Source of the DNA: Verrucomicrobiota bacterium
GTDB taxonomy: Bacteria; Verrucomicrobiota; Verrucomicrobiia; Chthoniobacterales; UBA10450
Reading direction: 5' to 3'
Assembly (NCBI GenBank): GCA_003219195.1
Contig: QHPX01000082.1
Coordinates: forward strand, 6,340 to 30,339
DNA length: 24,000 bases
Shown here: positions 1 through 20,621 of the stretch, in pieces
Position numbering within the stretch: the stretch's first letter is position 1
How the letters are laid out: each line of letters begins with the position of its first letter
The notes under the pieces: model-generated
What the model saw: the letters and a program-made list of their open reading frames with translations, nothing else
Told to the model about the DNA's origin: nothing
The model's database searches: none
Position numbers and translations under genes: made by a program

Positions 1-1518
1 CCCGGCACGGTCGGAACGGGTGACGATCCAGCGATAGGAATCGATAGCAACGGACGCGTTTATTTTGCTTTTTCCAACGCCGGCACTGCTGCGTCCGTCG
101 CTACATCCAGCGACTTCGGCGTTACCTGGCAAAACATCGTTAATGTAGGAGCAGTTTACGGAATAAACAACGCAGCGTTTCCAGCCGCAGTTGCCGGTGA
201 CGCCGGTCGCGCCGCTGTTGCTTACTATGGCGCGAACTCGGGGACGGGAGATTCGAATTCGGGGGCATTTACCGGCGTCTGGCATCTCTATGTGGCGCAC
301 ACATTCGATGGAGGATCGACATGGACGACCTCCGACGTGACACCGAGTTTGCCGATGCAGCGCAGCGGTATTTTAAGGGGCGGCGGCGCCGACATCGTTC
401 GGAACCTGCTCGACTTTTTCGACATCACGATTGATCGAGACGGTCGCGTTTTAGTGGGGTACGTGAACGGATGCTCAGGCGGCCCATGCGCGCAGGCAGC
501 GCCGACGGCACACGGCAACACATACAGCGCGACAGCGACAATCGCCCGGCAGTCCAGCGGCAGACGCATGCTTGCTGCCAAGGATCCTGCGAGCACCACG
601 TCCGTGCCCGGGATGCCATTCGTGACACAACGCAGAATCGGCCCTCTCGTCCACCTCGCATGGAATGAGGCCGATAACGGCAACTCGGCGATCAAGCGCT
701 ATCAGATATTGAGAGGAACGACGAGCGGCAGTGAGACTCTGCTGGCCAAGGTGTCGGGCAATCCGCCCGCGACGACTTATGACGACCTCACTGCGACTGA
801 CACGACCAAGACTTACTACTATAAGGTGATCGCGGTAAATGGCGTGGGATCATCATGCGGCAACGACGAAGTGGCGTCCCCATTCGTGGGCAGCCCGAGC
901 AGTGGAATGATTATCCACCAGAACGATCCGAGTCATCCGGAAGCCACCGGAGGAAGCGTGTCGCCGCCGCCCGCCCCTGAACTTCTGATTGACTATATTG
1001 CGGTCGGCGAGCCGACTGGAACGAGTAACCTGATGTTCACGATGAAAGTGGAGGATCTCTCCACTATACCGCCGAACAGCCGATGGAGGATCGCCTGGAA
1101 TTGGTGGACACCCACGAGTCAAATGTACTACATTGGAATGACGAGCGACCAGAACAGCGCGGTCACTTTCGAGTACGGCACGCTGGCGGACGCTGGCATT
1201 CCGGCCGTTCTCGTTCTCGGAGAGACGAAGGCTGGAGTGCCCGCTGGTAGTTTCAATACTGATGGCACAATTACGATGTTCGTGCCGAAGTCCGCTGTTG
1301 GAAATCCGCAGCCTGGAGATCTGATGGGCGCCATCGGTGGAAAGACAATCACCGGCGACACGCCAACCACGAATACTTTCGAGCGCTCGACCACGTTCGT
1401 GGACCACACCTTCATCAAAGGGCAAGCTGACAACTGCTATCCACCTGCGACATACACGGTGGCCGGCAATGGGCCGAGTCCAACGCCAACACCTACACCA
1501 AAGCCTCATAAAAAATGA
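1..1518 (+). CDS. Secreted Asp-box/BNR beta-propeller + FN3 + C-terminal beta-sandwich protein, paralog A (5' end lies outside the window)
   Basis: Frame 1 is open from base 1 (PGTVGTGDDPAIGIDSNGRVYFAF...), so track ORF 292..1518 is only the part after an internal Met. It aligns residue-for-residue with the C-terminal ~500 aa of the next gene (HLYVA-TFDGG--W, NLLDFFD, YQILRGT-SG-ETLL, IDYIAVGEP-GTSNLMF-MKV). It ends in PTPTPTPKPHKK*. Confidence 0.85.
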   Translation, partial: PGTVGTGDDPAIGIDSNGRVYFAFSNAGTAASVATSSDFGVTWQNIVNVGAVYGINNAAFPAAVAGDAGRAAVAYYGANSGTGDSNSGAFTGVWHLYVAHTFDGGSTWTTSDVTPSLPMQRSGILRGGGADIVRNLLDFFDITIDRDGRVLVGYVNGCSGGPCAQAAPTAHGNTYSATATIARQSSGRRMLAAKDPASTTSVPGMPFVTQRRIGPLVHLAWNEADNGNSAIKRYQILRGTTSGSETLLAKVSGNPPATTYDDLTATDTTKTYYYKVIAVNGVGSSCGNDEVASPFVGSPSSGMIIHQNDPSHPEATGGSVSPPPAPELLIDYIAVGEPTGTSNLMFTMKVEDLSTIPPNSRWRIAWNWWTPTSQMYYIGMTSDQNSAVTFEYGTLADAGIPAVLVLGETKAGVPAGSFNTDGTITMFVPKSAVGNPQPGDLMGAIGGKTITGDTPTTNTFERSTTFVDHTFIKGQADNCYPPATYTVAGNGPSPTPTPTPKPHKK

Positions 1519-4927: not shown

Positions 4928-7900
4928 ATGAAAAAAAATCCTGCTTCGCAGTCCGGCCTTTTCAATCCCCGCGTCTTGTTAGCTTTTTGCCTTTGTTCAG
5001 TTGGCGGCTTGCTAGCTATGCTCAGCTTTGCGTCAACACCGTCGAGCGGAACGCTGACCGACACGTCCGGCCCCGTGACTTACACGGCCGGGCCATTTTT
5101 CGTAGCGAATCCCACTCCGGTGATCGAGGTTGACAGTGGCCCGGAATGCAACGGTTCGCTTCAGCCTTGCGACGATTACGCGTTGACGGTGACTCTGCCG
5201 TCTGGTTATGCCGCCGCGCATCCAAACGCCGCGATCAAGGCCACCATGAGCTGGACCGATAACGGCAGCGGCGCCTCGGACTACGACCTTTACATCTACA
5301 AAAATCCCCGCGGCGATTGCAGCCCCCAAGATTGCACGACCACAGACGGTTCCGAGGCGGCTGATTACCAATCGGCGAGCAGCGCTAACCCTGAGATCGC
5401 AACCATCAGCCCGCTGGCCGATGGCACTCAGAAGTACACCGTGGTGGTCGTGCCGTTCACACCGACTGGCGAAAGCGTCCATGTGACAATCGAATTACTG
5501 CCGGGTTCCGGGAGCGGGGGCGGCGGCACCGGCTTCGGAGGGCCCGATCCAACCACCCCGGGCGTTCCGCGCTACCAGAATTTTTATGCGCCCGCCAGTA
5601 GCTCTGCCGAAACCAGTAACGGCGAGTTCAACATTGGATTCAATCCTCACACCGGCCGAATCATGACGATGAATATCGGCCCGATCTGGCGCCTGACTCC
5701 GCCGGAGCGTTTGTCGCAAGCGCAGCCCGAGTGCTGCGAGGCGCTCTGGGAAGACAAAACCAATCTCACCACCATAACAGGTCTTGATCCAATCCTATTT
5801 ACCGATCAGAAGACCGGCCGCACTTTTGCCTCCAATTCCACTGTTGGCGCTAACGCTGTTTACGGATACAGCGACAATGACGGAGATCTATGGGTGCCGC
5901 TAGCTGCTTCACCGGCCAGCGGCGGCACCGATCATGAAACCATAGGCAGCGGTCCGTATCCCCCTGCGTTGAGCGCACTCTCAAACGCAGTCAATCAGGG
6001 GGAGGCAGTGTACTACTGCTCTCAATCATTCCCTCTCGGTCCCGCCACCTGCCAACGTAGCGATACCTTAGGTGCCAGTTATGGCCCGGGCGTACTGGCA
6101 TATGAAGGCAACGGTATCACGCAGTGCAGCGGTTTGCACGGCCATGTTCATGTCGCGCCGGATGGCACAGTCTGGCTGCCGGTCAATCAGTGCGGCGGCA
6201 AGCAGGGCGGCGCGCTGAGTACAGACGCAGGCACAACTTGGCAGGAGTTCATCGTCACGGGCAGCATCTCGCAGACCCAAGGCGCCGATCCTTCGATCGC
6301 GATCGACTCTGATAGCACCGTTTACTACGCCTATGTCAACAATGAGCCGGTCGCCGCGGGGAATCCGCCTGAAGGTCACGCGCGCGTCAAGGTAGGTCAC
6401 CGCAATCCAGATAACAGTGTCACCTGGACTAATGACTTCGACATCGGCGCATCTCACGGCATCGTGAACGCAGCGGAGATCGAGGCCGTAGGCGGCAGCT
6501 CCGGCCGTGCCGCGGTCGGCTTCCTTGGCACCAATGTCGCGGGCGATTACCAGGCGATAAGTTTCCCGGGCAAATGGTACGCCTTCATCGCCACCACTTC
6601 TGACGGTGGCCAAACCTGGACGACGGTCAACGCGACTCCGAATGATCCTGTTCAAAGCATGACCGGTGTCTGGCAGCAAGGGGGCAACCATCAAGACCGC
6701 AATCTTCTTGACTTCAATGAAATCACCGTGGACGACAAAGGTCGAGTGCTCTACGGCTACAGCGACGGCTGCGTGACGGAAGGCTGTATCGCCGGCACCG
6801 CGCCCAACGATTTTGTTGCCTTCATGCGCGTTGCACGTCAGTCCGGAGGCAAGAGTTTGTTCGCAAGTTTTGACACTGCGGAACCCGTAGCGCCGAAACC
6901 TCCTTGCCTCTCCGGCACACGCGATCCCTCCGCTTCCCATCTCACTTGGAAGGCCCCGGACAACGGCGGCTCTGACGTTGGTAACTACCAGATCTTGCGC
7001 GGAACATCGCCGGGTGCGGAGGCGCTGCTAGGCCAGACCGACAAAACCACCTTCGACGACACCACCGCCGATCCCGCTGTGTCACACTATTATTATGTGG
7101 TTAAGGCGATCAATGCCATCGGCACTAGTAGTTCGAGCAACGAAGTGGACCTAACAGTGGTCGTACCGCCGCCGCCAGAAAATGTCTGCGCGCTGCCTGG
7201 CCTGACCAAGCTCACGGACCCCGCTGGTGACACGTACATTTTAATCAACTTTGGGGTGCCTACTCCGGCCCCACCAGGTGCGGACCTGCTTTCCTTCCAA
7301 ATCGCTCAGCCTTATGCCGAGGACAATGTCATCAGGCTGGCGTTCACCATTAACACCGACAACGGCCAGTCGCCCCAGCCCCTGGGTACGTCCTGGTATG
7401 TCGCAATGAAGATACCTGACCCCGCCCCGGCAACGACTTTCCATTACCGTGCCGTGCACATGACTTGGAACGGCACCACGCCGACCTTCGAGTCCTATAC
7501 GCCGGCCCCCAACGGCAGCGGGGGAGTTGATGGCCGCTTTGTAACTGCCGGCAGTCAGAAGCCGGCCGAGCCGAGCAGTGGTTACGCCCCGCCATTTAAC
7601 AAGGTCGTCATTGTGGTCAAGGCGAGTGACCTTGGCTTGAACCCCGGCGACACCATCAGCGGCTTCGTTTCAGCAGTGTCGCAGACTGCGGGCGGTGTAA
7701 TCACGGGGTTGTATGATGACATGCCCGACAGTCTCGCCTTTACTGGCACCTACACCGTGAACAGCAACCAGTTCTGCAGGCCAAACGCTGCGCCGACAGC
7801 GGTGTTAACGGCAACGCCTACCTCGGGCACTGCGCCATTGACCGTGAACTTCGACGGCTCAGGTTCATACGATCCGGATACTGCGCCGCCGCCAGACACC

Positions 7901-8332: not shown

Positions 8333-9334
8333 ATGCAATTCTCGCGAATGATTGGAGCAGCAGTTCTTTTGGTTCTCGTATCAGGTGCGCTCGTCTCGAC
8401 GAAGCTCTCCCGTGCACAGTCTGCGGCCGCAGAGCAAATCGTTGTGACCGGAGAGGAAGTGCCCAGCGCTTACGGTGCGCCGCCGGGGATTTCGCGCAGC
8501 CGCTTTTCACCGCTTACCAATGCGTATGTGTTGCCGCCGGGCGCAGTCTACGGCGGTTTGCTCTATGAAGGAGACGCGTTTCGGCATGGACCGCCCGATC
8601 ATCTCTTCATCGAAGAGGTCGAAATCGGATTACCGCATCGTTTCGGACTTGCCTTCGAAATCAGCCAGGAGCGTTTCAACGGCGACTTCCAAAACAAGAG
8701 CTTCAGCGTTGAAGCGCGTTACGCACTTGCCGACTGGAACAAAATTCCGCTGAATCCGACGCTATTCGCCGAATACAAATTCGGCACCGGGCGTATTCTT
8801 CACGAGGAACGCCCGCCGGAACAAGACATGGCCGAAGAAGAAGCGAGTCGCCAAGCGCATCTAAACCTCGAAGACATGAGCAATGAAGGTGACCTGAGCG
8901 CGGAAGGAAAACCCAAAATGCCCGATGCATATGAGTTCAGGCTTTTGCTTGCTGAAGACTTCGGCGAGCGGATCGAGTGGGCAATGAACTGGTTCTTCGA
9001 GCAAGAAATCGGTTTTGATCGCGGCCGCGAGTGGGGCTTTGCCCAAAGCGCGGTGATTCCGATTTTGCTCGAGCACGAACGTCTCAAAGCCGGCGTCGAA
9101 ATGCAGTACCGGAATTTCACTGACAAGGACACGCGCGGCGATCCACTCCACAGCTTCGTTGTCGGCCCGACCATCGCCTGGAAACCGACGCACAATACCC
9201 GCGTTGACGTTTCCCCGCTCTTCGGATGCACCGACGATGCGCCCCGCGCGCAAGTCTTCGTTGTCTTCTCGATGTTATTTGGGCCGGGCGGCGAAACCGG
9301 AGCCGAAGCGCCCGCTTCAACGCGTAATCGCTAG
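8333..9334 (+). CDS. Putative outer-membrane beta-barrel protein of unknown function
   Basis: The signal-peptide-like N-terminus is MQFSRMIGAAVLLVLVSGALVSTKLSRAQS. There is a series of short amphipathic strand-like segments (FGLAFEISQE, FSVEARYALAD, TLFAEYKFG, YEFRLLLAEDF, IEWAMNWFFEQE, AGVEMQYRNF, VVGPTIAWKP, QVFVVFSMLF). An acidic insert (EERPPEQDMAEEEASRQAHLNLEDMSNEGDLSAEG) is present. No catalytic motif was recognised. Confidence 0.55.
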   Translation: MQFSRMIGAAVLLVLVSGALVSTKLSRAQSAAAEQIVVTGEEVPSAYGAPPGISRSRFSPLTNAYVLPPGAVYGGLLYEGDAFRHGPPDHLFIEEVEIGLPHRFGLAFEISQERFNGDFQNKSFSVEARYALADWNKIPLNPTLFAEYKFGTGRILHEERPPEQDMAEEEASRQAHLNLEDMSNEGDLSAEGKPKMPDAYEFRLLLAEDFGERIEWAMNWFFEQEIGFDRGREWGFAQSAVIPILLEHERLKAGVEMQYRNFTDKDTRGDPLHSFVVGPTIAWKPTHNTRVDVSPLFGCTDDAPRAQVFVVFSMLFGPGGETGAEAPASTRNR

Positions 9335-9454
9335 AATATTTTTCTGCCGCGGCCGTCTATGACCAGCGGAATAATGCGACGCTCCTGGAGCGCCGCTCCA
9401 AGGCTTGACCGCTTCTCTTCGCCTCCGTAGCCTTTTTTCAGAAAGGAGCACGAG

Positions 9455-9691
9455 GTGAAAACCGAGATATCGATCGAATACTGCGTGGTTTGAAACTACA
9501 CACCCAAGGCCGTCAGTTTGGCGGCCAAAATTCTCGAACTCGGCGAGCGTATCAAGTCGCTTACTCTCGTTCCTTCGAGCGGCGGAGCATTCGAAATTCG
9601 CGCCAATGGAAAACTTCTCCATTCCAAACTCGATTCCGGCGATTGGCCGGACTTCGATGCCATTGTGCGCGACATCAAGAAACTCAAGTAA
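9455..9691 (+). CDS. SelW/Rdx-family selenoprotein (CxxU redox motif) with in-frame UGA = Sec at 9491..9493
   Basis: GTG 9455 lies 6 nt after AAGGAG (9443..9448) and is the first start after the in-frame stop at 9428. The translation is VKTEISIEYCVV-U-NYTPKAVSLAAKILELGERIKSLTLVPSSGGAFEIRANGKLLHSKLDSGDWPDFDAIVRDIKKLK*. This matches the Rdx pattern IEYC-x-x-C/U ... L-P-x-x-G-G-x-FE ... G-x-L-x-SK ... G-x-FP. It is absent from the ORF track because of the UGA. A hairpin follows the UGA, and the gene lies next to tRNA-Sec and selDAB. Confidence 0.85.
9508..9526 (+). promoter_or_regulatory. Candidate bacterial SECIS hairpin for the SelW-like gene
   Basis: ggccgtc AGTTT ggcggcc forms a 7-bp stem (one G-U pair) with loop AGUUU. 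The loop G at 9516 is 23 nt after the UGA. The same loop sequence occurs in the selD hairpin. Confidence 0.55.
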
Positions 9692-9768
9692 TCGCTCTTT
9701 TGCTTCTTCTGTAGCTCGGCGTTGGACCTTGAACGTTGGGCGTTGGACGTTTTCTGTTTTTTCTTTCC

Positions 9769-9862
9769 GGAGAGTGAAGGGTGCCTGGTGGCCCTCGCGG
9801 TCTTCAAAACCGTCGCCGCCGCGCAAGCGGCGAGATAGGTTCGATTCCTGTCCTCTCCGCCA
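9769..9862 (+). tRNA. selC: tRNA-Sec (anticodon UCA), 94 nt with encoded CCA
   Basis: The anticodon loop CU-UCA-AA is flanked by the 5-bp stem gcggt/accgt. A D-arm of about 6 bp has the 4-nt loop TGGT. The long variable arm is cgccgc-cgcgcaa-gcggcg. The T-arm is atagg-TTCGATT-cctgt. The acceptor GGAGAG.. pairs with ..CTCTCC, followed by discriminator G and CCA. The overall layout resembles E. coli selC as I recall it. Confidence 0.85.
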
Positions 9863-9888
9863 ATTCCATATTTTAGATCGCGTTGTAG

Positions 9889-9918
9889 CTGCCGCCGTCA
9901 CCGCGGCAGACCCATTTT
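9889..9918 (+). terminator. Weak hairpin plus T-run between tRNA-Sec and selD (possible partial terminator or processing site)
   Basis: ctgccgc (9889..9895) pairs with gcggcag (9903..9909) across a 7-nt loop. TTTT at 9915..9918 is separated from the stem by 5 nt, so this is not a canonical intrinsic terminator. Confidence 0.25.
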
Positions 9919-9936
9919 GGAGAGGGGGTGAGTCGG

Positions 9937-10989
9937 ATGTCGCGCGACCAAATTCGTAAACTAACGTCGCTCTCCTCCTGCGCGGGGTGAGCTTCCAAGT
10001 TGAGCCAACAGGCCCTGACGCAAGTTTTGCGTCAGCTTCCAATTTCCACGAACGCGAAAGTGCTCGTCAATTCGTACACGTTCGATGACGCCGGCGTTTA
10101 TCGTTTGGATCGACATCGTGCGCTCGTGCAAACGGTCGATTTCTTCACGCCGATTGTGGACGATCCATTTGCTTACGGCCAAATCGCCGCCGCCAATGCG
10201 CTCTCCGATGTTTTTGCCATGGGGGGCCGGCCGCTCACGGCCTTGAACATCATGGGATTTCCCGCTGATTTGGTTCCGTCGAAGACAATTACGTCGATTT
10301 TGCGCGGCGGTTATGAGAAAGCGGCCGAAGTTAGCTGCGCAATCGTCGGCGGACACACCATTCGCAATCCGGAACCAATTTACGGTCTTGCGGTCACGGG
10401 CATTGTTGACCTTCGACACATGATGACGAACGCAAAGGCGCGGCCCGGCGATTTGCTTGTCCTGACAAAACCGCTCGGCACCGGCATCGCCACAACTGCG
10501 CTCAAACGCGGCCTTTGCTCGCGCGAGGTCGAGCGAAAAGTCATTTCATTAATGTCGAGAATAAATTCGGTTGGCGCCAAGCTCGCCGAAAAGAAACTCG
10601 TGCGCGCGGCAATCGACGTCACTGGTTTCGGATTGCTCGGTCACCTTGCGTCGATGTGCCGAGCCAGCGAAATGAGCGCTGAAGTTTTGAGCGACCGGGT
10701 TCCGGCAATCGACGATGAGATATTTGAATTGATCGCGCGTGACTGCATTCCCGGCGGCAGCCGCGACAACCTGAAAAGCGCGAACAGCATTGTCGACTGG
10801 CAAAAAACGCCGCAGCCGCAACGAATTTTGCTCACTGATGCACAAACGAGCGGCGGTTTGCTTCTCGCTGTTGCGCCGAGCCGTCTCAACAAAGTGCTCG
10901 CGCTGCTCAAACGGAATCGCACAACATGCGCCGCCATCATCGGGAAAATTGTTCCAGCGCGCGAACCGCTCCTATGCATAAAGAAGTAA
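9937..10989 (+). CDS. selD: Selenide, water dikinase (selenophosphate synthetase), selenocysteine-containing form; UGA = Sec at 9988..9990
   Basis: ATG 9937 lies after GGAGAGGGGG (9919..9928) and is in frame with track ORF 10000..10989. The N-terminus reads MSRDQIRKLTSLSSCAG-U-ASKLSQQALTQVL. It aligns with the E. coli SelD active-site segment [25 protein letters not shown], with U at the Cys17 position and K at the Lys20 position. Downstream come DDAGVY, TVDFFTPIVDDPFAYGQIAAANALSDVFAMGG and the AIR-synthase-like fold motifs. Confidence 0.85.
10015..10035 (+). promoter_or_regulatory. Candidate bacterial SECIS hairpin for selD
   Basis: ctgacgca AGTTT tgcgtcag forms a perfect 8-bp stem with loop AGUUU. 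The loop G at 10024 is 34 nt after the UGA. Confidence 0.5.
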
Positions 10990-12344
10990 CTGCTTCGCGC
11001 CGCGCCATTCCCTCAGTCACGAAGGTGCTCGATTCGCTAGGCAAAATCGATTTAGCCCGGCCGTTGATTGTCGATCGTGTCCGACGAGAACTTTCGAGAA
11101 TCCGCGCCTCGGGCAAGATTCCTGAATTTCGATCGATTGTCGATCTTGTGCGCATTTCGCTCGAGGAGCTTCGTGCCAGCCGGCTGCAACCGGTCATTAA
11201 CGGAACTGGGATCGTCATTCACACAAACGTTGGCCGCGCCCCGCTCGCTTCAGCGGCAGTCCATGCGCTCAGCGAAGTTGGCTCGGCCTACTCCAATCTC
11301 GAGTACGATCTGATGACGGGTGGCCGAGGACACCGCGGCGCTTACATCGAGACCGCGCTCGCGCTGCTTTGCGGCGCGGAATCGGCCACGGTCGTGAACA
11401 ACTGCGCCGCCGCGCTGGTGCTGATCGTTCAACATTTTACCAGGACCAAGCCGGAAGTCGTCATCTCGCGCGGTGAACTTGTCCAAATCGGCGGTGAATT
11501 TCGCATCGGCGAAATCCTCGAGGCGACCGGCGTGAAGTTGCGAGAGGTCGGAGCGACAAACAAAACAGCGCTCGCCGATTACTCGCGAGCAATTGGTCCA
11601 CAGACCGGAATAATCTTGAAAGTTCATCGCAGTAATTTTTTCATGAGCGGTTTTGTCGAATCGCCTTCTTCGACGGCAATCGCCAGGCTCGCCCGAAAAA
11701 AGCGCGTTCCCTTTGCTGAGGATTTGGGCAGCGGCGCGATCGTTGCGACGGAACAATTTGGAATACCAGAGCATGAGCCGACGCCGGTTGAGGCGCTGGA
11801 AGATGGCGCCGATCTTGTTTGCTTCAGCGGCGATAAGTTGTTCGGCGGACCGCAAGCGGGGATTATCGCCGGGAAAAAGCGGTTCATCGCCGCCCTGAAG
11901 CGCGAGCCGCTATTTCGCGCGTTGCGCTGCGACAAACTGATTCTCACGGCGCTGCAATCGACTGTCGATTTTCACCTCACTGATTCGACGTCCGAAATCC
12001 CGGCAATCGCGTTCTTGCGGATTTCCAAAGACGAATTGCGCGCACGCGCCGCGGCGATCCTTGCCCGGCTTCGCGGATTACCGCTGCAAATCGCGATTGG
12101 GCGCGGCACCGTTAAAGTCGGCGGCGGCACACTGCCGAGGTCAGTGATGTCGTCAATCACGATCGATATTTTTCCGGAGAGTTGTTCTGTCCAGGATTTC
12201 GCGAGCACTCTTCGTCAATCGGTTCCACCGGTCATCGGTTACGTCGCGAATGAGCGGTTCAAGCTCGATCTGCGCACGATCTTTCCGCAACAGGACGACG
12301 CTGTCGTTGACGCGATTCGAACCGCCTGCGCAGCGACTCACTAA
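10974..12344 (+). CDS. selA: L-seryl-tRNA(Sec) selenium transferase
   Basis: MHKEVTASRRAIPSVTKVLD... has the SelA-type N-terminus. FSGDKLFGGPQAGII matches the SelA PLP-lysine motif. ATG 10974 is preferred to track start 10926; it gives a 16-nt overlap with selD instead of 64 nt. Confidence 0.85.
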   Translation: MHKEVTASRRAIPSVTKVLDSLGKIDLARPLIVDRVRRELSRIRASGKIPEFRSIVDLVRISLEELRASRLQPVINGTGIVIHTNVGRAPLASAAVHALSEVGSAYSNLEYDLMTGGRGHRGAYIETALALLCGAESATVVNNCAAALVLIVQHFTRTKPEVVISRGELVQIGGEFRIGEILEATGVKLREVGATNKTALADYSRAIGPQTGIILKVHRSNFFMSGFVESPSSTAIARLARKKRVPFAEDLGSGAIVATEQFGIPEHEPTPVEALEDGADLVCFSGDKLFGGPQAGIIAGKKRFIAALKREPLFRALRCDKLILTALQSTVDFHLTDSTSEIPAIAFLRISKDELRARAAAILARLRGLPLQIAIGRGTVKVGGGTLPRSVMSSITIDIFPESCSVQDFASTLRQSVPPVIGYVANERFKLDLRTIFPQQDDAVVDAIRTACAATH

Positions 12345-12355
12345 TTCTCGTCCAG

Positions 12356-14281
12356 ATGACGGAAAAACATTTCATTCTCGCAACCGCCGGCCATGTCGAT
12401 CATGGCAAGAGCGCGCTGGTCAAAGCGCTTACTGGAATTGATCCCGATCGCCTGCCGGAGGAAAAGGCACGGGGCATCAGCATCGAACTCGGGTTCGCGC
12501 AATTGATTCTCCCCGGGCCTGACGAGCAGCGGTACCACGTAGGAATTGTCGATGTACCTGGTCACGAAGATTTCGTCCGAAACATGATTGGGGGCGTTGG
12601 CTCGATCGATCTCGCACTTCTGGTTATTGCAGCCGACGACGGTTGGATGCCGCAGACAGAAGAGCACCTCCAAATTCTGATTTATCTCGGTGTGAAACGC
12701 GCGCTGATCGCGCTGACAAAGAGCGATCTGGGTAAGATCGACAATATCGCTGGGCAAATCCGCCACCGGCTACGCGACACTCCGGTTACAAGTTCACACA
12801 TCATTCCGACTTCCGTTCGCACCGGCGAAGGAATCGAAAATTTAAAACGCGCGCTTGCCCTGGAGTTCGCAACTCTGCCACCGCAACGCGATATCGGGAA
12901 AGCGCGCCTGTTTGTCGATCGCGCGTTTACGTTGCGCGGCATCGGCACGGTCGTGACCGGCACATTAACGGGTGGAAAACTCCGACGAGGCCAGAATGTT
13001 ATCGTCCAACCGCAAAATGTTTCCTCGCGTATCCGCTCGATTCAAAGTCACGGACGCGATCTGGAATCCGCCGAGCCCGGGATGCGCACTGCGGTCAATT
13101 TACCCGATGTCGAACTTGGAACCGGCCCGGCGGCGATCAAGCGCGGCGACGTGGTCACGATTGTCGATCTTGTTGCGCCCAGCGCGACCTTTGATGTTCT
13201 GCTCGAAAAATCGCCGCGCCTGAATCGAAGCGACCCGGCGGCGCGTCCGCTGAGAAATGGAACCTCGATTTACGTTCACCACGGCACCGCGCGCGTTTCG
13301 GCGAAGGTTGCGTTCCTTGAAGAAGAAACGTTGGCCTGCGGCGAAAGCTTGCTCGCGCGTTTGCGACTGAAGTCGCCCATCCTCGCCCTGCTCGGTGATC
13401 GGTTTGTTATTCGCGACTCATCAGAGCAGCATACGATCGCTGGCGGGATCATGCTGGATCCAGATGCTGATCGATCGAATTTTCAAAGCGCAGGCCAAAA
13501 GCGGCTTTTAAAACAGCGCGCGACTGCGCCGCACGATGTCGATCTTTGCCTGCAATCGGAACTTGCTCGCAGCGGCATCGCGGAAAGCAAGACGTTGCTG
13601 CGCAAATCGCACTTCAGCCAGGCTGAAATCACGTCTGCTTTGCTTCGGTTACAAGGTCGAGGCGCAATTATCTTGCGTAGCGAAATTGCCGCCGCTGCCG
13701 GCAAGTGGCTTGAGCTCGTACACCGCGCAAGTGAACTGATCGACACAACGCACAAAAAACATCCGGAAAAGCGCGGCCTTGAGCTTGCTGAGTTGCGCGC
13801 GGCATTGCCCGATCAATCAGCTGACGCTTTCGACGCGCTCCTTTCGGATTTGTGCGCAAACAGTTTTGTTCGAGCCGGCACGTCAATCGCACGCGCATCG
13901 CACCGTGCCGCATTGCCGCCGCAGATTCAGCCGGCCGCGGAGAAGATTCGAACCGCACTCTCGGCAAAGCCTTTCGATCCACCCGCGCGCAAACAAATCG
14001 CGCAAGATCGACATCTACAGCAGGCGCTCCGATTTTTGATCGAACAAGGCGAAGTCGTCGAAATCGGTGCTGACGTGGTCTTGTCGCGAGAAGCGTTCAC
14101 CCAAATGAAGGAAGCGGTCACGGCGTTCATTTCAAAAAACGATTCCGCCATCGTGGGCGAACTCCGCCATGAACTTCAGACATCGCGCCGAGTCATTGTC
14201 CCCTTGCTTGAGCGGCTCGATCGCGAACGCATCACCCGCCGCACTGGAGATCGACGAACGTTGGTCGCGATGAAATTGTAG
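12356..14281 (+). CDS. selB: Selenocysteine-specific translation elongation factor
   Basis: The GTPase motifs are AGHVDHGKS (G1), DVPGHEDF (G3) and TKSD (G4). The EF-Tu-like domains are followed by a long C-terminal extension of about 300 aa, which in SelB forms the SECIS-binding winged-helix region. The gene sits immediately after selA. Confidence 0.9.
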
Positions 14282-14310: not shown

Positions 14311-17300
14311 ATGGTTCAGAGAAGCGCCAACGAGCGACAAAATGTGCGACATGTGACGCTTCATATTGGCGCCTCGTTTGAGGCCGCTTGGGAGAGCGTG
14401 CTCCAGCCGTGGTTTGAGTCTGTGTCTCAGATCGCTTGCGCCATCGCTAAGCCGGCGGTCGTTGTTTTGCCTTACCAGTCTCGCACCCAATTCTTCCGCT
14501 ATCGCCTCCTGGAGGCAGGCATCCCGCTCCTGGGAGTAAAATTCGTTGCTCCGTTGCAACTGCGGGAAATTCTCCTCCATCCGGCGGGAGTTAAATTGCC
14601 GCTCCGCGAGCACCTTCGTCTTCTGCTTTCCTTCGCAGCGGAGCAAGTCATCGCAGCGAACTCCGAAAATGAAGCCATCGACGCGACTATTGCCGCCGCA
14701 AAAACCGTCTGGCGCGCGCCCGATCATCTGCTTCGTACAATCGACCGGCTAAACGCTGCCGGCTGGTCTTTCGATGAGATCGGGCCACCGGCATTTCAAA
14801 AAGTTCTCTCTCGCTTTCGGACTCTGATTAAGAAGTGCGGCTTCACCTCTATTCACGAAGCCGACCGTCTTGCCCTGGCCCGGGCTGAGAACGCAGAGAA
14901 AATTTTTAGCAATTTGCTGGTTGCGGGATTCGACGGAGCCCACTGGCCGCTTTGGCCAATGCTCTCGGCCGCGACAAAAGCATCAGCCAAGGCCACAGTC
15001 GTTCTGACCGACCCTCGCGATGAAGCCCGTGATCTCGATGAATGTTGGATCGGAACCTGGGAACAAACATTTGCCGCTGCTCTACCAATCGAGCCGCCGA
15101 CCCGCGTGGCAAGAATATCTTCTCGCCAAATTTCCGGCGCTGCCGATCAAAAAAGTCAGCTCGAGCTTTTTGCGGATAAACTTGGCCGGCCAGTTCATTT
15201 TCTTCTGGGCCGCGAAACAACTGAAGAAGCTCGCGCTATTTCTACTCTTGTTTTGAAATTCCTCACCGAGCCTTCCGCTCGTCGCATTGGTGTTTTGTTT
15301 CCCTCCGCCGGCGCACTTGCCCGATCGGTCGCAGCGCTTCTCAGCGAACTCGAGATTCCGCACTACGATTCGATCGCTCATCTGATAGCGCCCACAATAG
15401 ATGATCTTGCCTGGCAAGCCTGGCTGCAGTTGCAGGAAAACAACCGGCTTAATCCTCTCCTCCACTTTCTATCGACCTTTGAAAACAACGCACGCCTGCT
15501 CGGCGACGTGACGCTGGAGCAAGTCGAGAATATTTTACGCCGCGCTTATCGACAAATCCTGATCGATGACATCGCGGTGCTGCGCGAATATTGCGCGCAT
15601 CACTCGACCGAGGAGGCTGCACCAGCAGCTGCAGTTCGCATGGCCGGCGTGAGATTTTTACCGGCAGCCGCGACTTTCCCGGAATTCATCAGGCAAACTT
15701 CCGAAATCTTCGCCGAACTGGGCTGGGAAAACCGGAAGATTGAATTGGAAAGATTGAGTAAGGATTGGAGCGAAACTATCGACGGCTCCTTTTCGCGCCA
15801 GAGTTACCTGCGGTGGCTACGTGAGATTCTCAGCAAACCGACGCGATCACGCGACCGATGCGGCGATCATCCCTACAGCCGCGTCCATTTGCTTTCGTTT
15901 AGAGAAGCCGAAGGGCAGGAGTGGTCGCATCTCATCCTCGCCGGGCTGAACGAAGGCGCGTGGCCGCGATCGGACAACGAATCGGATTTTGTTCGCGACG
16001 AAGAGATCGATGCTCTCAATCGCCGGATCAAAGTCTTGAACCGGCGCGCGATCGTGCAAGGCCGCCACGGAGAAGGACAGTGGAGCGTTAAGGAGGGAAA
16101 AACGTTGTGCCTCGGTTCGATCGAGCGGCAGCAGATCGCCCTCCGGCAGATGGCTAACTTGATGGAATCAGCGGAACAAGGGTTGGCAATCAGCGCGGCC
16201 TTGTTCACCGAATCATCTCCGCGGCGCATCGCCAATCCGAGCGAGTTTTTTTCCGGTCTGTATTTCAATCTCCATGGCAAGGCGCTTTCCCAACCCACGC
16301 TCGAAGCGATGGAGAAACAGACACATGAATGGGTGGAACAATCCGGCTTGCTTGTCAGAAAAGCGCGAGATGAAGCAGCCGTTGCGCAAACGCGAATTGC
16401 CTATAATGAGCGGCGCGCCGAAAAAAAAGCTGGTGAGTTCGAATTTGCCCTTCGGGCGCCGCTGATCGAGCCAATCTCACTTTCCGTATCGGAGTTCGAA
16501 CGATTATTCAAATCGCCGGCGCTCATCTGGATGAAGTCCTTTCTCGGCGTTGAGGCGGACGATCTCGATCTCGAGCAATGGAACCTAGCCGTTGGCATTT
16601 GGGTGCATGAATGGCTACGCGAGATTGTTGATCGCCCTTCCGCCCAAAGTTTCGGAAAACTTGGTTCCGATGCGCGAGAGCGCGTCCAGCGCGCGGCCAC
16701 GACGTTTCGTGACGAGATCGCAACAATGTTGAAACGATGCGGTCGCGCCGTGCCGGATTGGTGGAGCTCGACCTGGCACAATGCCTTTTACATATCGAAT
16801 TGTTTCGCTGGACATGTCGCCGCGACCAAGGAATGGCCCTATGCGGCGACGGAATGGTCGCTCCGCGCTTTGCCTGCAATTCAGATAAACGGCGCCGATG
16901 GACTCAAACTGCGCGGTCGCATCGACCTGATTCTGGCCAAGGAAAATCCAACTACCAACAAATTTACTGAGGAAGATCTCTGGGTGGTCGATTACAAAAC
17001 CGGAAAACGCAAAAACCTTCGCTCATCGCAGTGGCGGTTAGAGGACGACATTCGAAACGGAGTCCTCAAACAACTGCTCAAGGGCGAAGGCGTGCAAGTC
17101 GGCTTGTATGCTTTAGCGCTGGGTCAACTTGGAGCCAAAAACGTCGGGATCAGTTTGTTGGCGCGAGGTCTCGATCTTTCCGCGCCGCAGTTGATGCTGC
17201 CGCAGATCACGTGTCACGATCAGGTCTGGCGCGAACTGTCCGGCATGGAGAAGAGCGGTGTCTTCGGAATGCGTGGAGCGATTCGCTCTGAGTTTAATTT

Positions 17301-17412
17301 CACCGACGCATATCCATTGGCTACTCTGGCGGTCGATTACGACATCCTTGAAACAAAATGGACGTTGACACATCCGGCCTTTGCGACCGAATCGCCGGAG
17401 GAGGAACCATGA
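14311..17412 (+). CDS. addB: AddB-type subunit of helicase-nuclease complex (PD-(D/E)XK nuclease, degenerate helicase-like N-terminal region)
   Basis: It is 1033 aa long. The C-terminal RecB-family nuclease motif is GRIDLILAKEN...LWVVDYKTGKR...QVGLYALAL. I could find no Walker A motif. It is translationally coupled to the UvrD-like partner through an ATGA overlap at 17409..17412. Confidence 0.7.
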   Translation: MVQRSANERQNVRHVTLHIGASFEAAWESVLQPWFESVSQIACAIAKPAVVVLPYQSRTQFFRYRLLEAGIPLLGVKFVAPLQLREILLHPAGVKLPLREHLRLLLSFAAEQVIAANSENEAIDATIAAAKTVWRAPDHLLRTIDRLNAAGWSFDEIGPPAFQKVLSRFRTLIKKCGFTSIHEADRLALARAENAEKIFSNLLVAGFDGAHWPLWPMLSAATKASAKATVVLTDPRDEARDLDECWIGTWEQTFAAALPIEPPTRVARISSRQISGAADQKSQLELFADKLGRPVHFLLGRETTEEARAISTLVLKFLTEPSARRIGVLFPSAGALARSVAALLSELEIPHYDSIAHLIAPTIDDLAWQAWLQLQENNRLNPLLHFLSTFENNARLLGDVTLEQVENILRRAYRQILIDDIAVLREYCAHHSTEEAAPAAAVRMAGVRFLPAAATFPEFIRQTSEIFAELGWENRKIELERLSKDWSETIDGSFSRQSYLRWLREILSKPTRSRDRCGDHPYSRVHLLSFREAEGQEWSHLILAGLNEGAWPRSDNESDFVRDEEIDALNRRIKVLNRRAIVQGRHGEGQWSVKEGKTLCLGSIERQQIALRQMANLMESAEQGLAISAALFTESSPRRIANPSEFFSGLYFNLHGKALSQPTLEAMEKQTHEWVEQSGLLVRKARDEAAVAQTRIAYNERRAEKKAGEFEFALRAPLIEPISLSVSEFERLFKSPALIWMKSFLGVEADDLDLEQWNLAVGIWVHEWLREIVDRPSAQSFGKLGSDARERVQRAATTFRDEIATMLKRCGRAVPDWWSSTWHNAFYISNCFAGHVAATKEWPYAATEWSLRALPAIQINGADGLKLRGRIDLILAKENPTTNKFTEEDLWVVDYKTGKRKNLRSSQWRLEDDIRNGVLKQLLKGEGVQVGLYALALGQLGAKNVGISLLARGLDLSAPQLMLPQITCHDQVWRELSGMEKSGVFGMRGAIRSEFNFTDAYPLATLAVDYDILETKWTLTHPAFATESPEEEP

Positions 17413-20400: not shown

Positions 20401-20621
20401 AATACCTGCCGCAACTGGCGGCCTATTGGAGAGCAATCACGCAAATGACCGGCATGCCGGTTGAAGCGAGGATCTATTCAAGTGCAACTGGTCAATTTAT
20501 CGCTTACCAACCCGACGAGCTCGTGGCCGAATGGGAACGACTTCGGACGCTGCCGCTAAACGAGCTGACTCGGGAAATTGAGGCCAAGCCCCGCGTCAGC
20601 AATCACGCTCGCCGCGGATGA
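17409..20621 (+). CDS. addA: AddA-type UvrD/Rep-family helicase with C-terminal PD-(D/E)XK nuclease
   Basis: The motifs are Walker A AAAGSGKT, motif II ILDEAQDTD, VGDFQQSIFGDRA, ITGQKAKGSEWDAVIVP and RLLYVALTRARHTLVL. The C-terminal nuclease region is GIVDLAIFD...WLILDWKTN...QLAAYW. ATG 17409 lies after GGAGGAGGA and is preferred to track start 17358. Confidence 0.8.
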   Translation: MIAPSDHAQRERFCCDLETNFSVVAAAGSGKTRAITDRIVQIARSSGALEWLPKLVVVTFTHRAADEMQRRARQKILEARVSFDVVAAFNRAFFGTIHSFCVRLLSDYGHYLGLPPRLDLISDDDELWHDFVQSRTSIGHCLSEENRRILLRHVPVRQLMELGRRGNVSLPHATEFGPCPELDLDGIYRFSPSARSLEKIERGHAEVREWENAYRSGVDFLPLLECPSSAQGFVAVWDEAFGPFRKWLNCCALSVAAKIQSAYRDFRLDHGVLTYDDQIALADSLLQHPIAADRIRERNFRVILDEAQDTDPQQFSILLEVARPARARGHWLETRTDPPRAGHFCMVGDFQQSIFGDRADLKQYRRIHETLVEGDAGDALEFAVTFRLDQRQLDFVNSVFPLLLNEQENQVKFVELNPRPGLLPGQVVRLDIQAENERATRDKQSERQKADKEARQVAAWIKKNGLENLRAWCWSDVAILCPRKIWLRPLQEALRRVGLDVQTQSDNELNADNPAHAWLTALVTVLVKPQLSYEIVGVLREIFGLSDDDLARFSDGSGQRFQVQSITGEKGVVAETLNSLAALRDAIRSAPLYQAVCQAVADVRLRERLESLPSDEFDDLSTELDRLLVTAATAEADGKTLAEFARDLRANFDAPRESGPARRDAVQLITGQKAKGSEWDAVIVPFLSREVRTRSPDYARIVRIPPTGELVVALGRDDTSKEVKDALKLAERQEMERLLYVALTRARHTLVLAFDHALFHTAQGASPKNSQARWLRSAETEENSKVFGKLPKETQYCAATQERQREDTIQRELEQKLTLLPEVGAKTKSDGLKRAADYVRKLNPSRVAGGRILPITGSDTWKETDPELRPLAVESAATRYGLWWHEFAQRIPWTADANTCTRIFDEHQLRSPDTARSRREWQRLQEHLNDSTDFRQKFASDSVLLHSEMPFLWPGEASKCVEGIVDLAIFDRAKREWLILDWKTNRISRDQTALLRKQYLPQLAAYWRAITQMTGMPVEARIYSSATGQFIAYQPDELVAEWERLRTLPLNELTREIEAKPRVSNHARRG

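What the first reader, a model, noticed from the sequence alone, without database searches (positions are those of the whole stretch)
9455..9691. Unannotated SelW/Rdx-like selenoprotein hidden by an in-frame UGA
No ORF-track entry covers this gene in the right frame; the 74-aa ORF 9490..9714 is in a wrong frame. Reading from GTG 9455 through UGA 9491 gives a 78-codon protein with IEYCVVU (a CxxU redox centre) and the Rdx-fold signature downstream. A 7-bp hairpin with an AGUUU loop sits 23 nt after the UGA. The gene lies immediately upstream of tRNA-Sec and selDAB, which strongly supports Sec decoding rather than termination.
Basis: partly seen in the sequence, partly recalled or inferred. Interest (0 to 1): 0.7.

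Follow-up and report, generated by a model that had tools for sequence, protein, structure and literature searches.

The report
Hidden SelW-like selenoprotein gene, confirmed
A 78-codon gene that looks broken by a stop codon really encodes a small selenium-containing redox protein of the well-known SelW/Rdx family in a common soil bacterium (Candidatus Udaeobacter group); the call is correct, but it is an ordinary member of a known family.

Summary
The finding is confirmed. GTG 9455 to TAA 9691 encodes a 78-residue Rdx/SelW-like protein with an in-frame TGA at 9491-9493, giving a C10-V-V-U13 motif. With U read as C it scores 64.5 bits on Pfam Rdx (cut-off 22.6) and 55.6 on TIGR02174 (cut-off 34.2). 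The 12 codons upstream of the TGA add about 22 bits.

In 80 of 80 related Chthoniobacterales/Ca. Udaeobacter genomes the codon is TGA, and both flanks evolve as coding sequence in this frame. One natural variant has TGT (Cys). In solved bacterial homologs, the second Cys of CxxC aligns with the TGA.

A hairpin at 9508-9526 (8 bp, GUU loop) follows the TGA, and synonymous variation nearly vanishes across it. In 51 diverse SelW-like TGA genes from other lineages the hairpin sits at the same codon-aligned position. There it shows strong compensatory covariation and an invariant first loop G, so it is a bacterial SECIS.

tRNA-Sec, selD, selA and selB follow directly. selD is also Sec-encoding, and its hairpin has the same A-GUU-U apex.

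Bacterial SelW-like selenoproteins, and their loss from annotation, have been documented since 2005, so this is a new member of a known kind. The tight linkage to the sel operon is lineage-specific.

The parts
9443..9448 (+). Shine-Dalgarno AAGGAG, 6 nt before the start codon
   Evidence: Read directly from the sequence. The consensus of relatives also has GGAAAGGAGG upstream.
9455..9691 (+). SelW-like (Rdx family) selenoprotein gene: 78 codons including one Sec codon, TAA stop at 9689-9691
   Evidence: Translation. Pfam Rdx 64.5 bits; TIGR02174 55.6 bits; PDB homologs. The start codon is GTG in 74, ATG in 6 and TTG in 1 of the 81 sequences compared (the window and 80 relatives). Variability by codon position is 0.017/0.003/0.236 upstream of the TGA and 0.055/0.029/0.194 downstream.
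9482..9493 (+). C10-V-V-U13 redox motif (TGC GTG GTT TGA)
   Evidence: Aligns with the CxxC of solved bacterial SelW-related proteins. The motif is invariant in 80/80 relatives.
9491..9493 (+). In-frame UGA read as selenocysteine (codon 13)
   Evidence: TGA in 80/80 close loci and 80/80 distant loci. TGT (Cys) in L081. TGA is an ordinary stop for five long plus-strand genes of the window.
9508..9526 (+). SECIS hairpin inside the coding sequence: 5' arm 9508-9515, loop GUU 9516-9518, 3' arm 9519-9526
   Evidence: dG -14.1, z -2.7. Codons 20-23 are invariant at every position and third positions of codons 14-23 are almost invariant. 93% of cells are paired against 16-50% for slid controls. On diverse sequences, covariation is 0.368 against 0.181 for shuffles, and G26 is invariant.
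9769..9862 (+). tRNA-Sec (selC), anticodon UCA
   Evidence: ARAGORN; Rfam RF01852 at 62.2 bits. Found 0-220 nt downstream on the same strand in 78 of 79 related loci.
9937..10989 (+). selD (selenophosphate synthetase), itself Sec-encoding: ATG 9937, in-frame TGA 9988-9990 (SSCAG-U-ASK)
   Evidence: Translation. TIGR00476 at 349 bits, with the match starting at profile position 16 for the ORF-list version 10000..10989. The TGA is conserved in 73/80 loci.
10015..10035 (+). selD SECIS hairpin: 9 bp, loop GUU 10024-10026, same A-GUU-U apex as the SelW-like hairpin
   Evidence: dG -16.9, z -2.3. Compensatory changes: GC/CG/UG in 49/20/5 and CG/AU/GU in 47/11/9.
10926..12344 (+). selA (Sec synthase); the true start is uncertain and may lie downstream of 10926
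   Evidence: Pfam SelA 395 bits; TIGR00474 473 bits.
12356..14281 (+). selB (Sec-specific elongation factor) with C-terminal winged-helix SECIS-binding domains
   Evidence: TIGR00475 305.6 bits. Pfam SelB-wing_2, SelB-wing_3 and Beta-barrel_SelB.

Best explanation
Window 9455-9691 is a real, expressed-type gene for a 78-residue SelW-like (Rdx family, thioredoxin-like fold) selenoprotein of a Chthoniobacterales / Ca. Udaeobacter soil bacterium.

Proposed mechanism:
1. Ribosomes start at GTG 9455, behind an AAGGAG Shine-Dalgarno.
2. At codon 13 the UGA (9491) is decoded as selenocysteine rather than stop. The mRNA hairpin 9508-9526 lies 14 nt downstream, inside the coding sequence, with a GUU apical loop. 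It recruits SelB-GTP-Sec-tRNA(Sec) through SelB's C-terminal winged-helix domains and delivers it to the A site in competition with RF2.
3. All the components are encoded immediately downstream. tRNA-Sec is at 9769-9862. selD makes selenophosphate and is itself Sec-containing, with a hairpin that has the same apex. selA converts Ser-tRNA(Sec) to Sec-tRNA(Sec). selB is the Sec-specific elongation factor.
4. The product carries a C10-x-x-U13 centre in the CxxC position that Rdx proteins share. It most likely cycles between selenol/thiol and selenenylsulfide as a thiol-dependent oxidoreductase.

Shown here: the gene, its frame and its family; conservation of the TGA; the Sec/Cys pairing; the conserved and covarying hairpin; and the adjacent machinery.

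Inferred from established knowledge of bacterial Sec decoding: SelB binding to this hairpin and actual Sec insertion.

Unknown, as for the whole family: the physiological substrate.
For: Family membership:
- Pfam PF10262 64.5 bits against a cut-off of 22.6, covering residues 4-75 and HMM positions 1-73 of 74; the part after the UGA alone scores 42.1 bits.
- TIGR02174 55.6 bits against 34.2.
- PDB sequence hits 2fa8 (E 8e-8), 2p0g, 3dex, 2ojl, 2obk, 2oka, MIEN1 and mouse SelW. The second Cys of their CxxC aligns with the UGA.
- An AF2 model of the Cys variant finds only these structures as its top 21 matches.

Recoding:
- TGA in 80/80 close genomes and 80/80 distant metagenome loci.
- Codon-position variability upstream of the TGA is 0.017/0.003/0.236 and downstream is 0.055/0.029/0.194. 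The 5' flank is 0.45 and the 3' flank 0.585.
- The start codon interchanges between GTG, ATG and TTG.
- L081 has TGT (Cys) at this codon.
- TGA is a normal stop elsewhere in the window.

SECIS:
- dG -14.1, z -2.7.
- Codons 20-23 are fully invariant and third positions of codons 14-23 vary by only 0.035.
- The bottom pair changes from G-C to A-U through two synonymous changes in 5 sequences.
- On 51 diverse sequences, 5 pairs carry double changes in 51 cells. Covariation is 0.368 against 0.181+-0.015 for shuffles (0/500) and at most 0.156 for slid controls. The first loop base G is invariant.
- The selD hairpin has the same apex and its own covariation.
- Only these two TGAs in the window have such a hairpin. 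The apex is nearly exclusive to these two genes in 785 kb of related DNA.

Machinery: tRNA-Sec, selD, selA and selB are adjacent and syntenic in 67-79 of 81 loci.

Literature:
- SelW-like CxxU proteins were the most abundant bacterial selenoprotein family in the Sargasso Sea survey (PMC1088965).
Against: - There is no direct evidence of expression or of selenium incorporation: no transcript, peptide or 75Se data.
- No Rfam family other than tRNA-Sec matched the region. The published bSECISearch model could not be run.
- In 44 of 81 close relatives, codon 24 is Thr (ACC) instead of Ala. This puts a C.A mismatch in the third pair from the bottom, so only the upper 5 bp are universally kept.
- RNAalifold on the closely related set preferred a different, G-U-rich long hairpin with little covariation.
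- The structural model is only of medium confidence (pLDDT 67), and the N-terminal 13 residues are unresolved.
- No promoter or terminator was found by consensus scans, so the transcription unit is unknown.
Confidence: 0.93

Rival explanations
1. The UGA is a genuine stop. The functional product would be the 57-residue protein starting at TTG 9518, as public databases annotate it, with or without a separate 12-residue upstream peptide. Under this reading the CxxU motif is illusory.
For: Gene callers annotate hundreds of relatives as 57-aa proteins. An AAGG lies about 10 nt before TTG 9518.
Against: - The 12 upstream codons are under strong purifying selection in the same frame, with variability 0.017/0.003/0.236.
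- They add about 22 bits to the Rdx match and supply the N-terminal segment and first Cys of the family's CxxC motif.
- The gene has its own Shine-Dalgarno and interchangeable start codons.
- A 57-aa product would lack the redox centre that defines the family.
- In the five relatives with AAA instead of AAG, the putative internal Shine-Dalgarno is weakened, but the change is compensated on the other arm of the hairpin.
- The TGA is invariant in 160 loci, although a stop could equally be TAA or TAG.
Confidence: 0.02
2. The UGA is read through, but by something other than the Sec pathway: near-cognate Trp or Cys tRNA suppression, or a reassigned genetic code in which UGA is a sense codon.
For: Public databases contain relatives translated as CxxW or CxxG at this position.
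Against: - TGA ends at least five long, family-confirmed plus-strand genes in the window, so the code is standard.
- The W and G versions are what callers produce under codes 4 and 25; the DNA is TGA.
- A conserved, covarying hairpin with an invariant loop G is placed at a fixed distance. Together with an adjacent tRNA-Sec/selDAB set, this is the signature of SelB-dependent decoding, not of leaky suppression.
Confidence: 0.02
3. Besides encoding a protein, or instead of doing so, the short UGA-containing reading frame acts as a selenium-sensing leader. The efficiency of Sec decoding at codon 13 would set expression of the downstream tRNA-Sec and selDAB genes through translation-transcription coupling.
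For: The gene sits directly upstream of tRNA-Sec on the same strand in 78 of 79 Chthoniobacterales loci. No consensus terminator or promoter separates them. The UGA is very early, at codon 13.
Against: - The full 78-residue protein is conserved as an Rdx family member, so a protein function is selected.
- The same early UGA position and hairpin occur in 80 distant loci, of which only one has sel genes nearby. The early UGA is therefore a family trait, not an adaptation to the operon.
- The spacing to tRNA-Sec varies from 0 to 220 nt.
Confidence: 0.05

Closest known systems
Bacterial SelW-like selenoproteins (Zhang, Fomenko and Gladyshev 2005, PMC1088965; short SelW genes of Geobacter sulfurreducens and Campylobacter jejuni, PMC1242214; epsilonproteobacterial SelW, PMC4607533)
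   Same: A protein of about 75-85 residues with an N-terminal ...IEYCxxU motif, Rdx family membership, a very early in-frame UGA, a small apical hairpin with a G in the loop a few codons downstream, and frequent loss or truncation in annotation. The 80 distant metagenome loci retrieved here share the same TGA and the same hairpin position.
   Different: The lineage is different: Chthoniobacterales / Ca. Udaeobacter, for which no paper in the searched library discusses selenoproteins. Here the gene is tightly and consistently placed directly upstream of tRNA-Sec-selD-selA-selB (78/79 loci). Among distant relatives, only 1 of 23 well-flanked loci shows any linkage. The match falls below the cut-off of the Campylobacter-type equivalog NF041051 (70.3 against 88).
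Mammalian selenoprotein W (SELENOW; mouse SelW NMR structure 2NPB) and the wider Rdx family (SelT, SelH, SelV, MIEN1/Rdx12)
   Same: The CxxU motif near the N-terminus in a thioredoxin-like fold, and the G-x-FE...G-x-L-x-SK core. Sequence hits: 2npb at E 0.018 and MIEN1 2ljk at E 3e-6.
   Different: Eukaryotic SelW uses a 3'-UTR SECIS and the SBP2/eEFSec machinery. Here the SECIS lies inside the coding sequence right after the UGA and is read by SelB. Identity is only about 25-30%.
Cys-containing bacterial SelW-related proteins with solved structures (Atu0228 2FA8, Vibrio cholerae 2P0G, SAV_2001 3DEX, 2OJL, 2OBK, 2OKA)
   Same: The same family and fold. Their CxxC aligns with C10-x-x-U13. They are the only top structural matches, with TM about 0.6.
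   Different: They have Cys in place of Sec and are about 20-30 residues longer at the C-terminus. None has a known function either.
Escherichia coli fdhF SECIS and the minimal SelB-binding hairpin (Liu et al. 1998, as cited in PMC4607533; G23/U24 numbering from my own knowledge)
   Same: A short upper stem with a small apical loop carrying G-U, at a fixed distance downstream of the UGA and within the coding sequence. Here the loop G-U is at nt 26-27, counting the U of UGA as 1. In fdhF it is at 23-24, one codon closer.
   Different: The stem sequence is different. There is no obvious bulged U in the 5' arm. The 3-nt loop G-U/G-N is closed by A-U or G-U. Binding by this organism's SelB is inferred, not tested.

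Membership tests
Rdx / SelT-SelW-SelH family (Pfam PF10262, NCBIfam TIGR02174) | Profile-HMM score above the curated family cut-off over the whole domain | tested here: met
   PF10262 scores 64.5 bits (cut-off 22.6), covering residues 4-75 and HMM positions 1-73 of 74. TIGR02174 scores 55.6 bits (cut-off 34.2). U was replaced by C for scoring.
Rdx / SelT-SelW-SelH family (Pfam PF10262, NCBIfam TIGR02174) | A CxxC or CxxU redox motif at the family's conserved N-terminal position | tested here: met
   C10-V-V-U13 aligns with the CxxC of 2fa8, 2p0g and 3dex. It is invariant in 80 close relatives, and ..YCxxU is present in 80 distant relatives.
Rdx / SelT-SelW-SelH family (Pfam PF10262, NCBIfam TIGR02174) | Thioredoxin-like beta-alpha-beta-beta-beta-alpha fold | tested here: met
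   The AF2 model of the Cys variant P0001 (86% identical to the window protein) shows alpha1, three strands and alpha2. Its top 21 Foldseek PDB matches are all SelW-related structures, with TM 0.53-0.62 and probability at least 0.97. Caveat: pLDDT is 67 and the first strand (residues 1-13) is not resolved, so this rests mainly on residues 14-78 and on sequence homology to solved structures.
Rdx / SelT-SelW-SelH family (Pfam PF10262, NCBIfam TIGR02174) | Thiol/selenol-dependent redox activity | not testable with these tools
   This needs biochemistry. The function of the bacterial family is unknown in the literature consulted (PMC1088965).
NCBIfam NF041051 SelTWH_Campy (Campylobacter-type equivalog) | Score above the equivalog cut-off | tested here: not met
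   70.3 bits against a cut-off of 88. It is related, but not a member of this narrow equivalog.
Bacterial selenoprotein gene (SelB/SECIS-dependent UGA recoding) | An in-frame UGA with conserved coding sequence on both sides in the same frame | tested here: met
   TGA in 80/80 close loci and 80/80 distant loci. Three-periodic variability is seen on both sides.
Bacterial selenoprotein gene (SelB/SECIS-dependent UGA recoding) | Sec/Cys pairing: homologs carry Cys at the UGA position | tested here: met
   The PDB homologs have Cys there. L081 has TGT. Among the listed representatives with a recognisable motif, 69 have CxxC, 31 have CxxW and 4 have CxxG; most of the W/G forms appear to be TGA mistranslated.
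Bacterial selenoprotein gene (SelB/SECIS-dependent UGA recoding) | A stem-loop immediately downstream of the UGA with a small apical loop containing G (the bacterial SECIS features described in PMC1088965 and PMC4607533) | tested here: met
   The hairpin is at 9508-9526 with loop GUU. There is family-wide covariation and an invariant loop G26. G is in the first two loop bases in 54 of 67 unique sequences.
Bacterial selenoprotein gene (SelB/SECIS-dependent UGA recoding) | Recognition by a published SECIS model (bSECISearch or a curated covariance model) | not tested
   bSECISearch is not available here. The Rfam scan of 9000-10200 returned only tRNA-Sec above threshold and no SECIS family.
Bacterial selenoprotein gene (SelB/SECIS-dependent UGA recoding) | The genome encodes tRNA-Sec, SelA, SelB and SelD | tested here: met
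   All four lie within 4.6 kb downstream.
Bacterial selenoprotein gene (SelB/SECIS-dependent UGA recoding) | Selenium is actually incorporated at the UGA | not testable with these tools
   This needs 75Se labelling or mass spectrometry.

The most novel reading that the evidence does not exclude
In Chthoniobacterales / Ca. Udaeobacter, the SelW-like gene is an integral first gene of a self-contained 'selenocysteine island': SelW-like(U) - tRNA-Sec - selD(U) - selA - selB.

Two readings follow. Either the SelW-like protein is functionally coupled to selenium handling, for example as a selenenylsulfide carrier or reductase that feeds selenide to SelD. Or it is the principal client for which these abundant soil bacteria keep the whole Sec machinery.

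An independent selB - SelW-like - selA arrangement in an unrelated metagenome contig (L123) hints that the linkage has arisen more than once. If true, this would give the first functional context for bacterial SelW-like proteins, whose role is unknown.
Probability: 0.12. Interest if true: 0.55.

Novelty: new member of a known kind. Interest (0 to 1): 0.3.

Why it matters
The practical value is in annotation. This gene, and hundreds of its relatives in one of the most abundant soil bacterial groups, are stored in public databases in wrong forms. Some are 57-residue fragments lacking the active site. Some are CxxW or CxxG mistranslations. Some are fused to the tRNA-Sec gene.

Correcting them shows that Ca. 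Udaeobacter-type bacteria use selenocysteine and carry at least two selenoproteins, SelW-like and SelD.

The family-wide SECIS defined here has an upper 5-bp stem, a G-U/G-N loop, and the loop G at nt 26 from the U of UGA. It could be used to find other selenoprotein genes in these genomes.

For selenoprotein biology the result is expected rather than surprising. Bacterial SelW-like selenoproteins and their mis-annotation have been known since 2005.

Tried and rejected
- The Rfam scan of 9000-10200 at E up to 10 found only tRNA-Sec, so a curated SECIS model gave no help.
- RNAalifold on the 81 closely related sequences proposed a different long hairpin (columns 25-60). It is rich in G-U pairs and has a covariation term of only -0.8. 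I rejected it in favour of the compact hairpin, which is the single-sequence MFE and centroid structure and which covaries in diverse sequences.
- The consensus promoter/terminator scan of 9250-10050 found nothing. The fold of the 9689-9770 spacer is not better than shuffles, z -0.65.
- The first attempt to scan metagenomes, with a 24-sequence alignment, failed because it had no conserved stretch. A 5-sequence alignment worked.
- The structure prediction gave only pLDDT 67, because just two full-length homologs were available for the alignment. I used it only as supporting evidence.
- Literature searches for Udaeobacter or Verrucomicrobia selenoproteins found nothing relevant. Searches for SelW together with sel genes found no report of linkage. 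BSepDB and a 2026 review do not mention SelW or Verrucomicrobia by those words.
- I considered that the frozen synonymous sites over codons 20-23 might reflect an internal start at TTG 9518. I rejected this because the bottom-pair change is compensatory, the same hairpin is conserved where no TTG exists in distant relatives, and selD carries the same apex.
- I tested the idea that linkage to sel genes is a general property of SelW-like genes. It largely failed: 1 of 23 well-flanked distant loci.

Full report
**1. Observation**

The region reads as the first-stage reader described.
- An AAGGAG Shine-Dalgarno at 9443-9448 is followed after 6 nt by GTG 9455.
- The frame runs 12 codons (V/M-KTEISIEYCVV) to TGA 9491-9493.
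- It then continues for 65 codons (NYTPKAVSLAAKILELGERIKSLTLVPSSGGAFEIRANGKLLHSKLDSGDWPDFDAIVRDIKKLK) to TAA 9689-9691.
- GTG 9455 is the first possible start in the open frame.

The mechanical ORF list has 9490..9714 (74 aa) in a different frame. It also has 9518..9691 (57 aa, TTG) in the correct frame, covering only the C-terminal part.

The hairpin is at 9508-9526 (GGCCGUCA-GUU-UGGCGGCC), with dG -14.1 kcal/mol and z = -2.7 against dinucleotide shuffles. tRNA-Sec lies at 9769-9862 (ARAGORN; Rfam RF01852 at 62.2 bits). selD, selA and selB follow.

**2. Family**

With U replaced by C, the scores are:
- Pfam Rdx (PF10262): 64.5 bits over residues 4-75, against a gathering score of 22.6. The segment after the TGA alone scores 42.1 bits, so the 12 upstream codons contribute real family signal.
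- NCBIfam TIGR02174 (CXXU_selWTH): 55.6 bits against 34.2.
- The narrower Campylobacter equivalog NF041051: 70.3 bits, which is below its cut-off of 88.

Against solved structures, the best sequence hits are the Cys-containing bacterial SelW-related proteins 2fa8 (E 8e-8), 2p0g, 3dex, 2ojl, 2obk and 2oka, then human MIEN1 and mouse SelW. In the printed alignments the second Cys of their CxxC falls exactly on the TGA codon.

An AlphaFold2 model of a natural Cys variant (P0001) is of medium confidence (pLDDT 67, first 13 residues unresolved). Its top 21 Foldseek PDB matches are exclusively those SelW-related structures, with TM about 0.6.

**3. Is the TGA translated?**

A protein search returned 501 relatives. 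Nearly all the close ones are 57-residue calls that start at the equivalent of 9518, and JGI names them 'selenoprotein W-related protein'. Annotation pipelines therefore see the family but cut off the active site.

A scan of one genome per species found 156 relatives, and the best 80 were retrieved. Nearly all are Ca. Udaeobacter, Chthoniobacterales or Verrucomicrobiota soil MAGs; a few carry other phylum labels.
- Codon 13 is TGA in 80 of 80, and the peptide VKTEVSIEYCVV is conserved upstream of it.
- Across 81 unique sequences, variability at codon positions 1/2/3 is 0.017/0.003/0.236 for codons 2-12 and 0.055/0.029/0.194 for codons 14-78. The 5' flank is 0.45 and the 3' flank 0.585. Both sides of the TGA therefore evolve as protein-coding sequence in one frame.
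- The first codon alternates between GTG, ATG and TTG, as a start codon does.
- One metagenome contig (L081) carries TGT (Cys) at this codon, with the rest of the gene, the hairpin and the downstream tRNA-Sec intact.
- TGA terminates at least five long plus-strand genes in the window, so the genetic code is standard and the recoding is site-specific.

**4. The SECIS element**

In the close set:
- Codons 20-23 (GTC AGT TTG GCG) form the core of the hairpin. They are invariant at all twelve positions, including four synonymous sites.
- The mean third-position variability of codons 14-21 is 0.035, against about 0.2 elsewhere in the gene. That is the footprint of an RNA-level constraint overlaid on the coding constraint.
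- The bottom pair is G-C in 71 sequences, A-U in 5 and G-U in 3. All five AAA (Lys) codons co-occur with GCT (Ala), so both substitutions are synonymous.
- The third pair from the bottom is C-G in 37 sequences and a C.A mismatch in 44 (Ala or Thr at codon 24). The lower stem is therefore dispensable.

The close set is too similar for a strong covariation test. I therefore retrieved 80 distant SelW-like loci from metagenomes, using the post-Sec segments of five diverged relatives as the query.
- All 80 have TGA preceded by ...IEYCxx.
- In 36 of 67 unique sequences, the best hairpin has its loop at exactly the same codon-aligned position, +25..27 from the T of TGA. The stems differ but remain complementary: CCGUCA/UGACGG, CCGCCA/UGGCGG, AGCUA/UAGCU, CCGCGA/UCGCGG, CGGUCA/UGACCG.
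- On a gapless alignment of 51 diverse sequences, the window's hairpin is paired in 80.9% of cells, against 19-47% for slid controls.
- Five of its eight pairs show double changes, in 51 cells. The covariation score is 0.368, against 0.181+-0.015 for shuffles (0 of 500 reach it) and at most 0.156 for slid controls.
- The upper five pairs are paired in essentially every sequence. The first loop base G and the closing U are invariant.

**5. Internal control**

selD in the same window is itself a Sec gene. The true start is ATG 9937, and an in-frame TGA at 9988-9990 gives SSCAG-U-ASK, the position of the catalytic Cys/Sec of SelD.
- It is followed by a 9-bp hairpin at 10015-10035 with the same A-GUU-U apex.
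- The TGA is conserved in 73 of 80 loci.
- The stem covaries: GC/CG/UG in 49/20/5, and CG/AU/GU in 47/11/9.

Scanning the whole window on both strands for a TGA with open frame on both sides, followed by such a hairpin, returns exactly these two sites. Hairpins of at least 8 bp with this apex occur twice in the window, against 0.085 expected. In 785 kb of related loci, nearly all such sites are SelW-like or selD. Two independent selenoprotein genes sharing one apex, next to a selB that carries winged-helix SECIS-binding domains, make SelB-dependent decoding the only economical reading.

**6. Context and linkage**

- tRNA-Sec follows the SelW-like stop by 0-220 nt, on the same strand, in 78 of 79 loci with enough sequence.
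- selD, selA and selB are syntenic in 79, 73 and 67 of 81 loci.
- The linkage reaches relatives of about 60% identity, whose miscalled proteins run into the tRNA-Sec gene (P0122, P0192).
- It is not a family property. Among 23 distant loci with at least 3 kb on both sides, only L123 has sel genes nearby, in a different order: selB - SelW-like - selA.

The arrangement is therefore best treated as lineage-specific gene order, with a modest possibility of functional coupling.

**7. Comparison with what is known, and novelty**

SelW-like CxxU proteins were the most abundant bacterial selenoprotein family in the Sargasso Sea survey (48 genes; PMC1088965). They are listed in many bacterial selenoproteomes (PMC1794560). 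They were found as short genes in G. sulfurreducens and C. jejuni (PMC1242214). [quoted passage not shown]

This gene passes every testable membership criterion of that family and of SelB-dependent recoding. What is new is the host lineage: no paper in the searched library links Udaeobacter with selenoproteins. The consistent placement at the head of the sel cluster is also new. The verdict is a new member of a known kind, and a correct catch of routine interest.

**8. What remains inferred**

Expression, SelB binding to the hairpin, and selenium incorporation are inferred from established knowledge of bacterial Sec decoding. The redox function is inferred from the CxxU motif and the fold. The physiological substrate is unknown for the whole family.

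Noticed in passing
window 9937-10989 (TGA 9988-9990; hairpin 10015-10035): selD is itself a selenoprotein gene. The ORF list shows only 10000..10989 (TTG). The real gene starts at ATG 9937 and reads through an in-frame TGA (SSCAG-U-ASK). A 9-bp SECIS hairpin follows, with a GUU loop and clear compensatory covariation. The TGA is conserved in 73/80 related loci.
   Followed up: yes
proteins P0122, P0131, P0135, P0136, P0141 and others; P0127, P0240, P0263; P0063, P0122, P0192: Public protein collections hold SelW-like proteins with CxxW or CxxG at the active site. These appear to be the TGA mistranslated under genetic codes 4 and 25 by metagenome gene callers. Other entries run through the stop into the tRNA-Sec gene, giving the spurious tail ...ESEGCLVALAVFKTVVG. 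The underlying codon was confirmed as TGA in all 80 retrieved distant loci.
   Followed up: partly
L123 5011-10138: An unrelated metagenome contig has a different linked arrangement: tRNA-Sec (complement 5011-5107), selB (5873-7705), a SelW-like gene with its TGA at 7998, and selA (8942-10138). This may be an independent origin of linkage between SelW-like genes and the Sec machinery.
   Followed up: no
L081 70-306: A single 1-kb JGI contig carries the same gene with TGT (Cys) instead of TGA, while keeping the SECIS hairpin and the downstream tRNA-Sec. It is either a recent Sec-to-Cys replacement or a sequencing error.
   Followed up: partly
window 8333-9334: The 333-residue ORF directly upstream of the SelW-like gene has no Pfam or NCBIfam match at E up to 0.01. 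It is nevertheless conserved in 69 of 81 related loci at a median 62% identity, mostly on the same strand and upstream.
   Followed up: no
window 9718-9727 and 9739-9748, T-rich run 9750-9766: A direct repeat, GGCGTTGGAC, occurs twice in the 77-nt spacer between the SelW-like stop and tRNA-Sec, followed by a T-rich run. The predicted fold is no better than shuffles (z -0.65), and the consensus scan calls no terminator.
   Followed up: partly
window 14311-17412 and 17358-20621: A PD-(D/E)XK nuclease-family protein (1033 aa) and a UvrD-type helicase (1087 aa) follow selB. They look like an AddAB-type pair. The first is syntenic with the sel cluster in 61 related loci.
   Followed up: no
window 9494-9507: The 14-nt spacer between the UGA and the hairpin (AACUACACNCCNAA) also shows strongly suppressed synonymous variation in close relatives, with third-position variability of 0.02-0.11. 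No pairing explains this. It may reflect constraints from the UGA context or from spacing.
   Followed up: no
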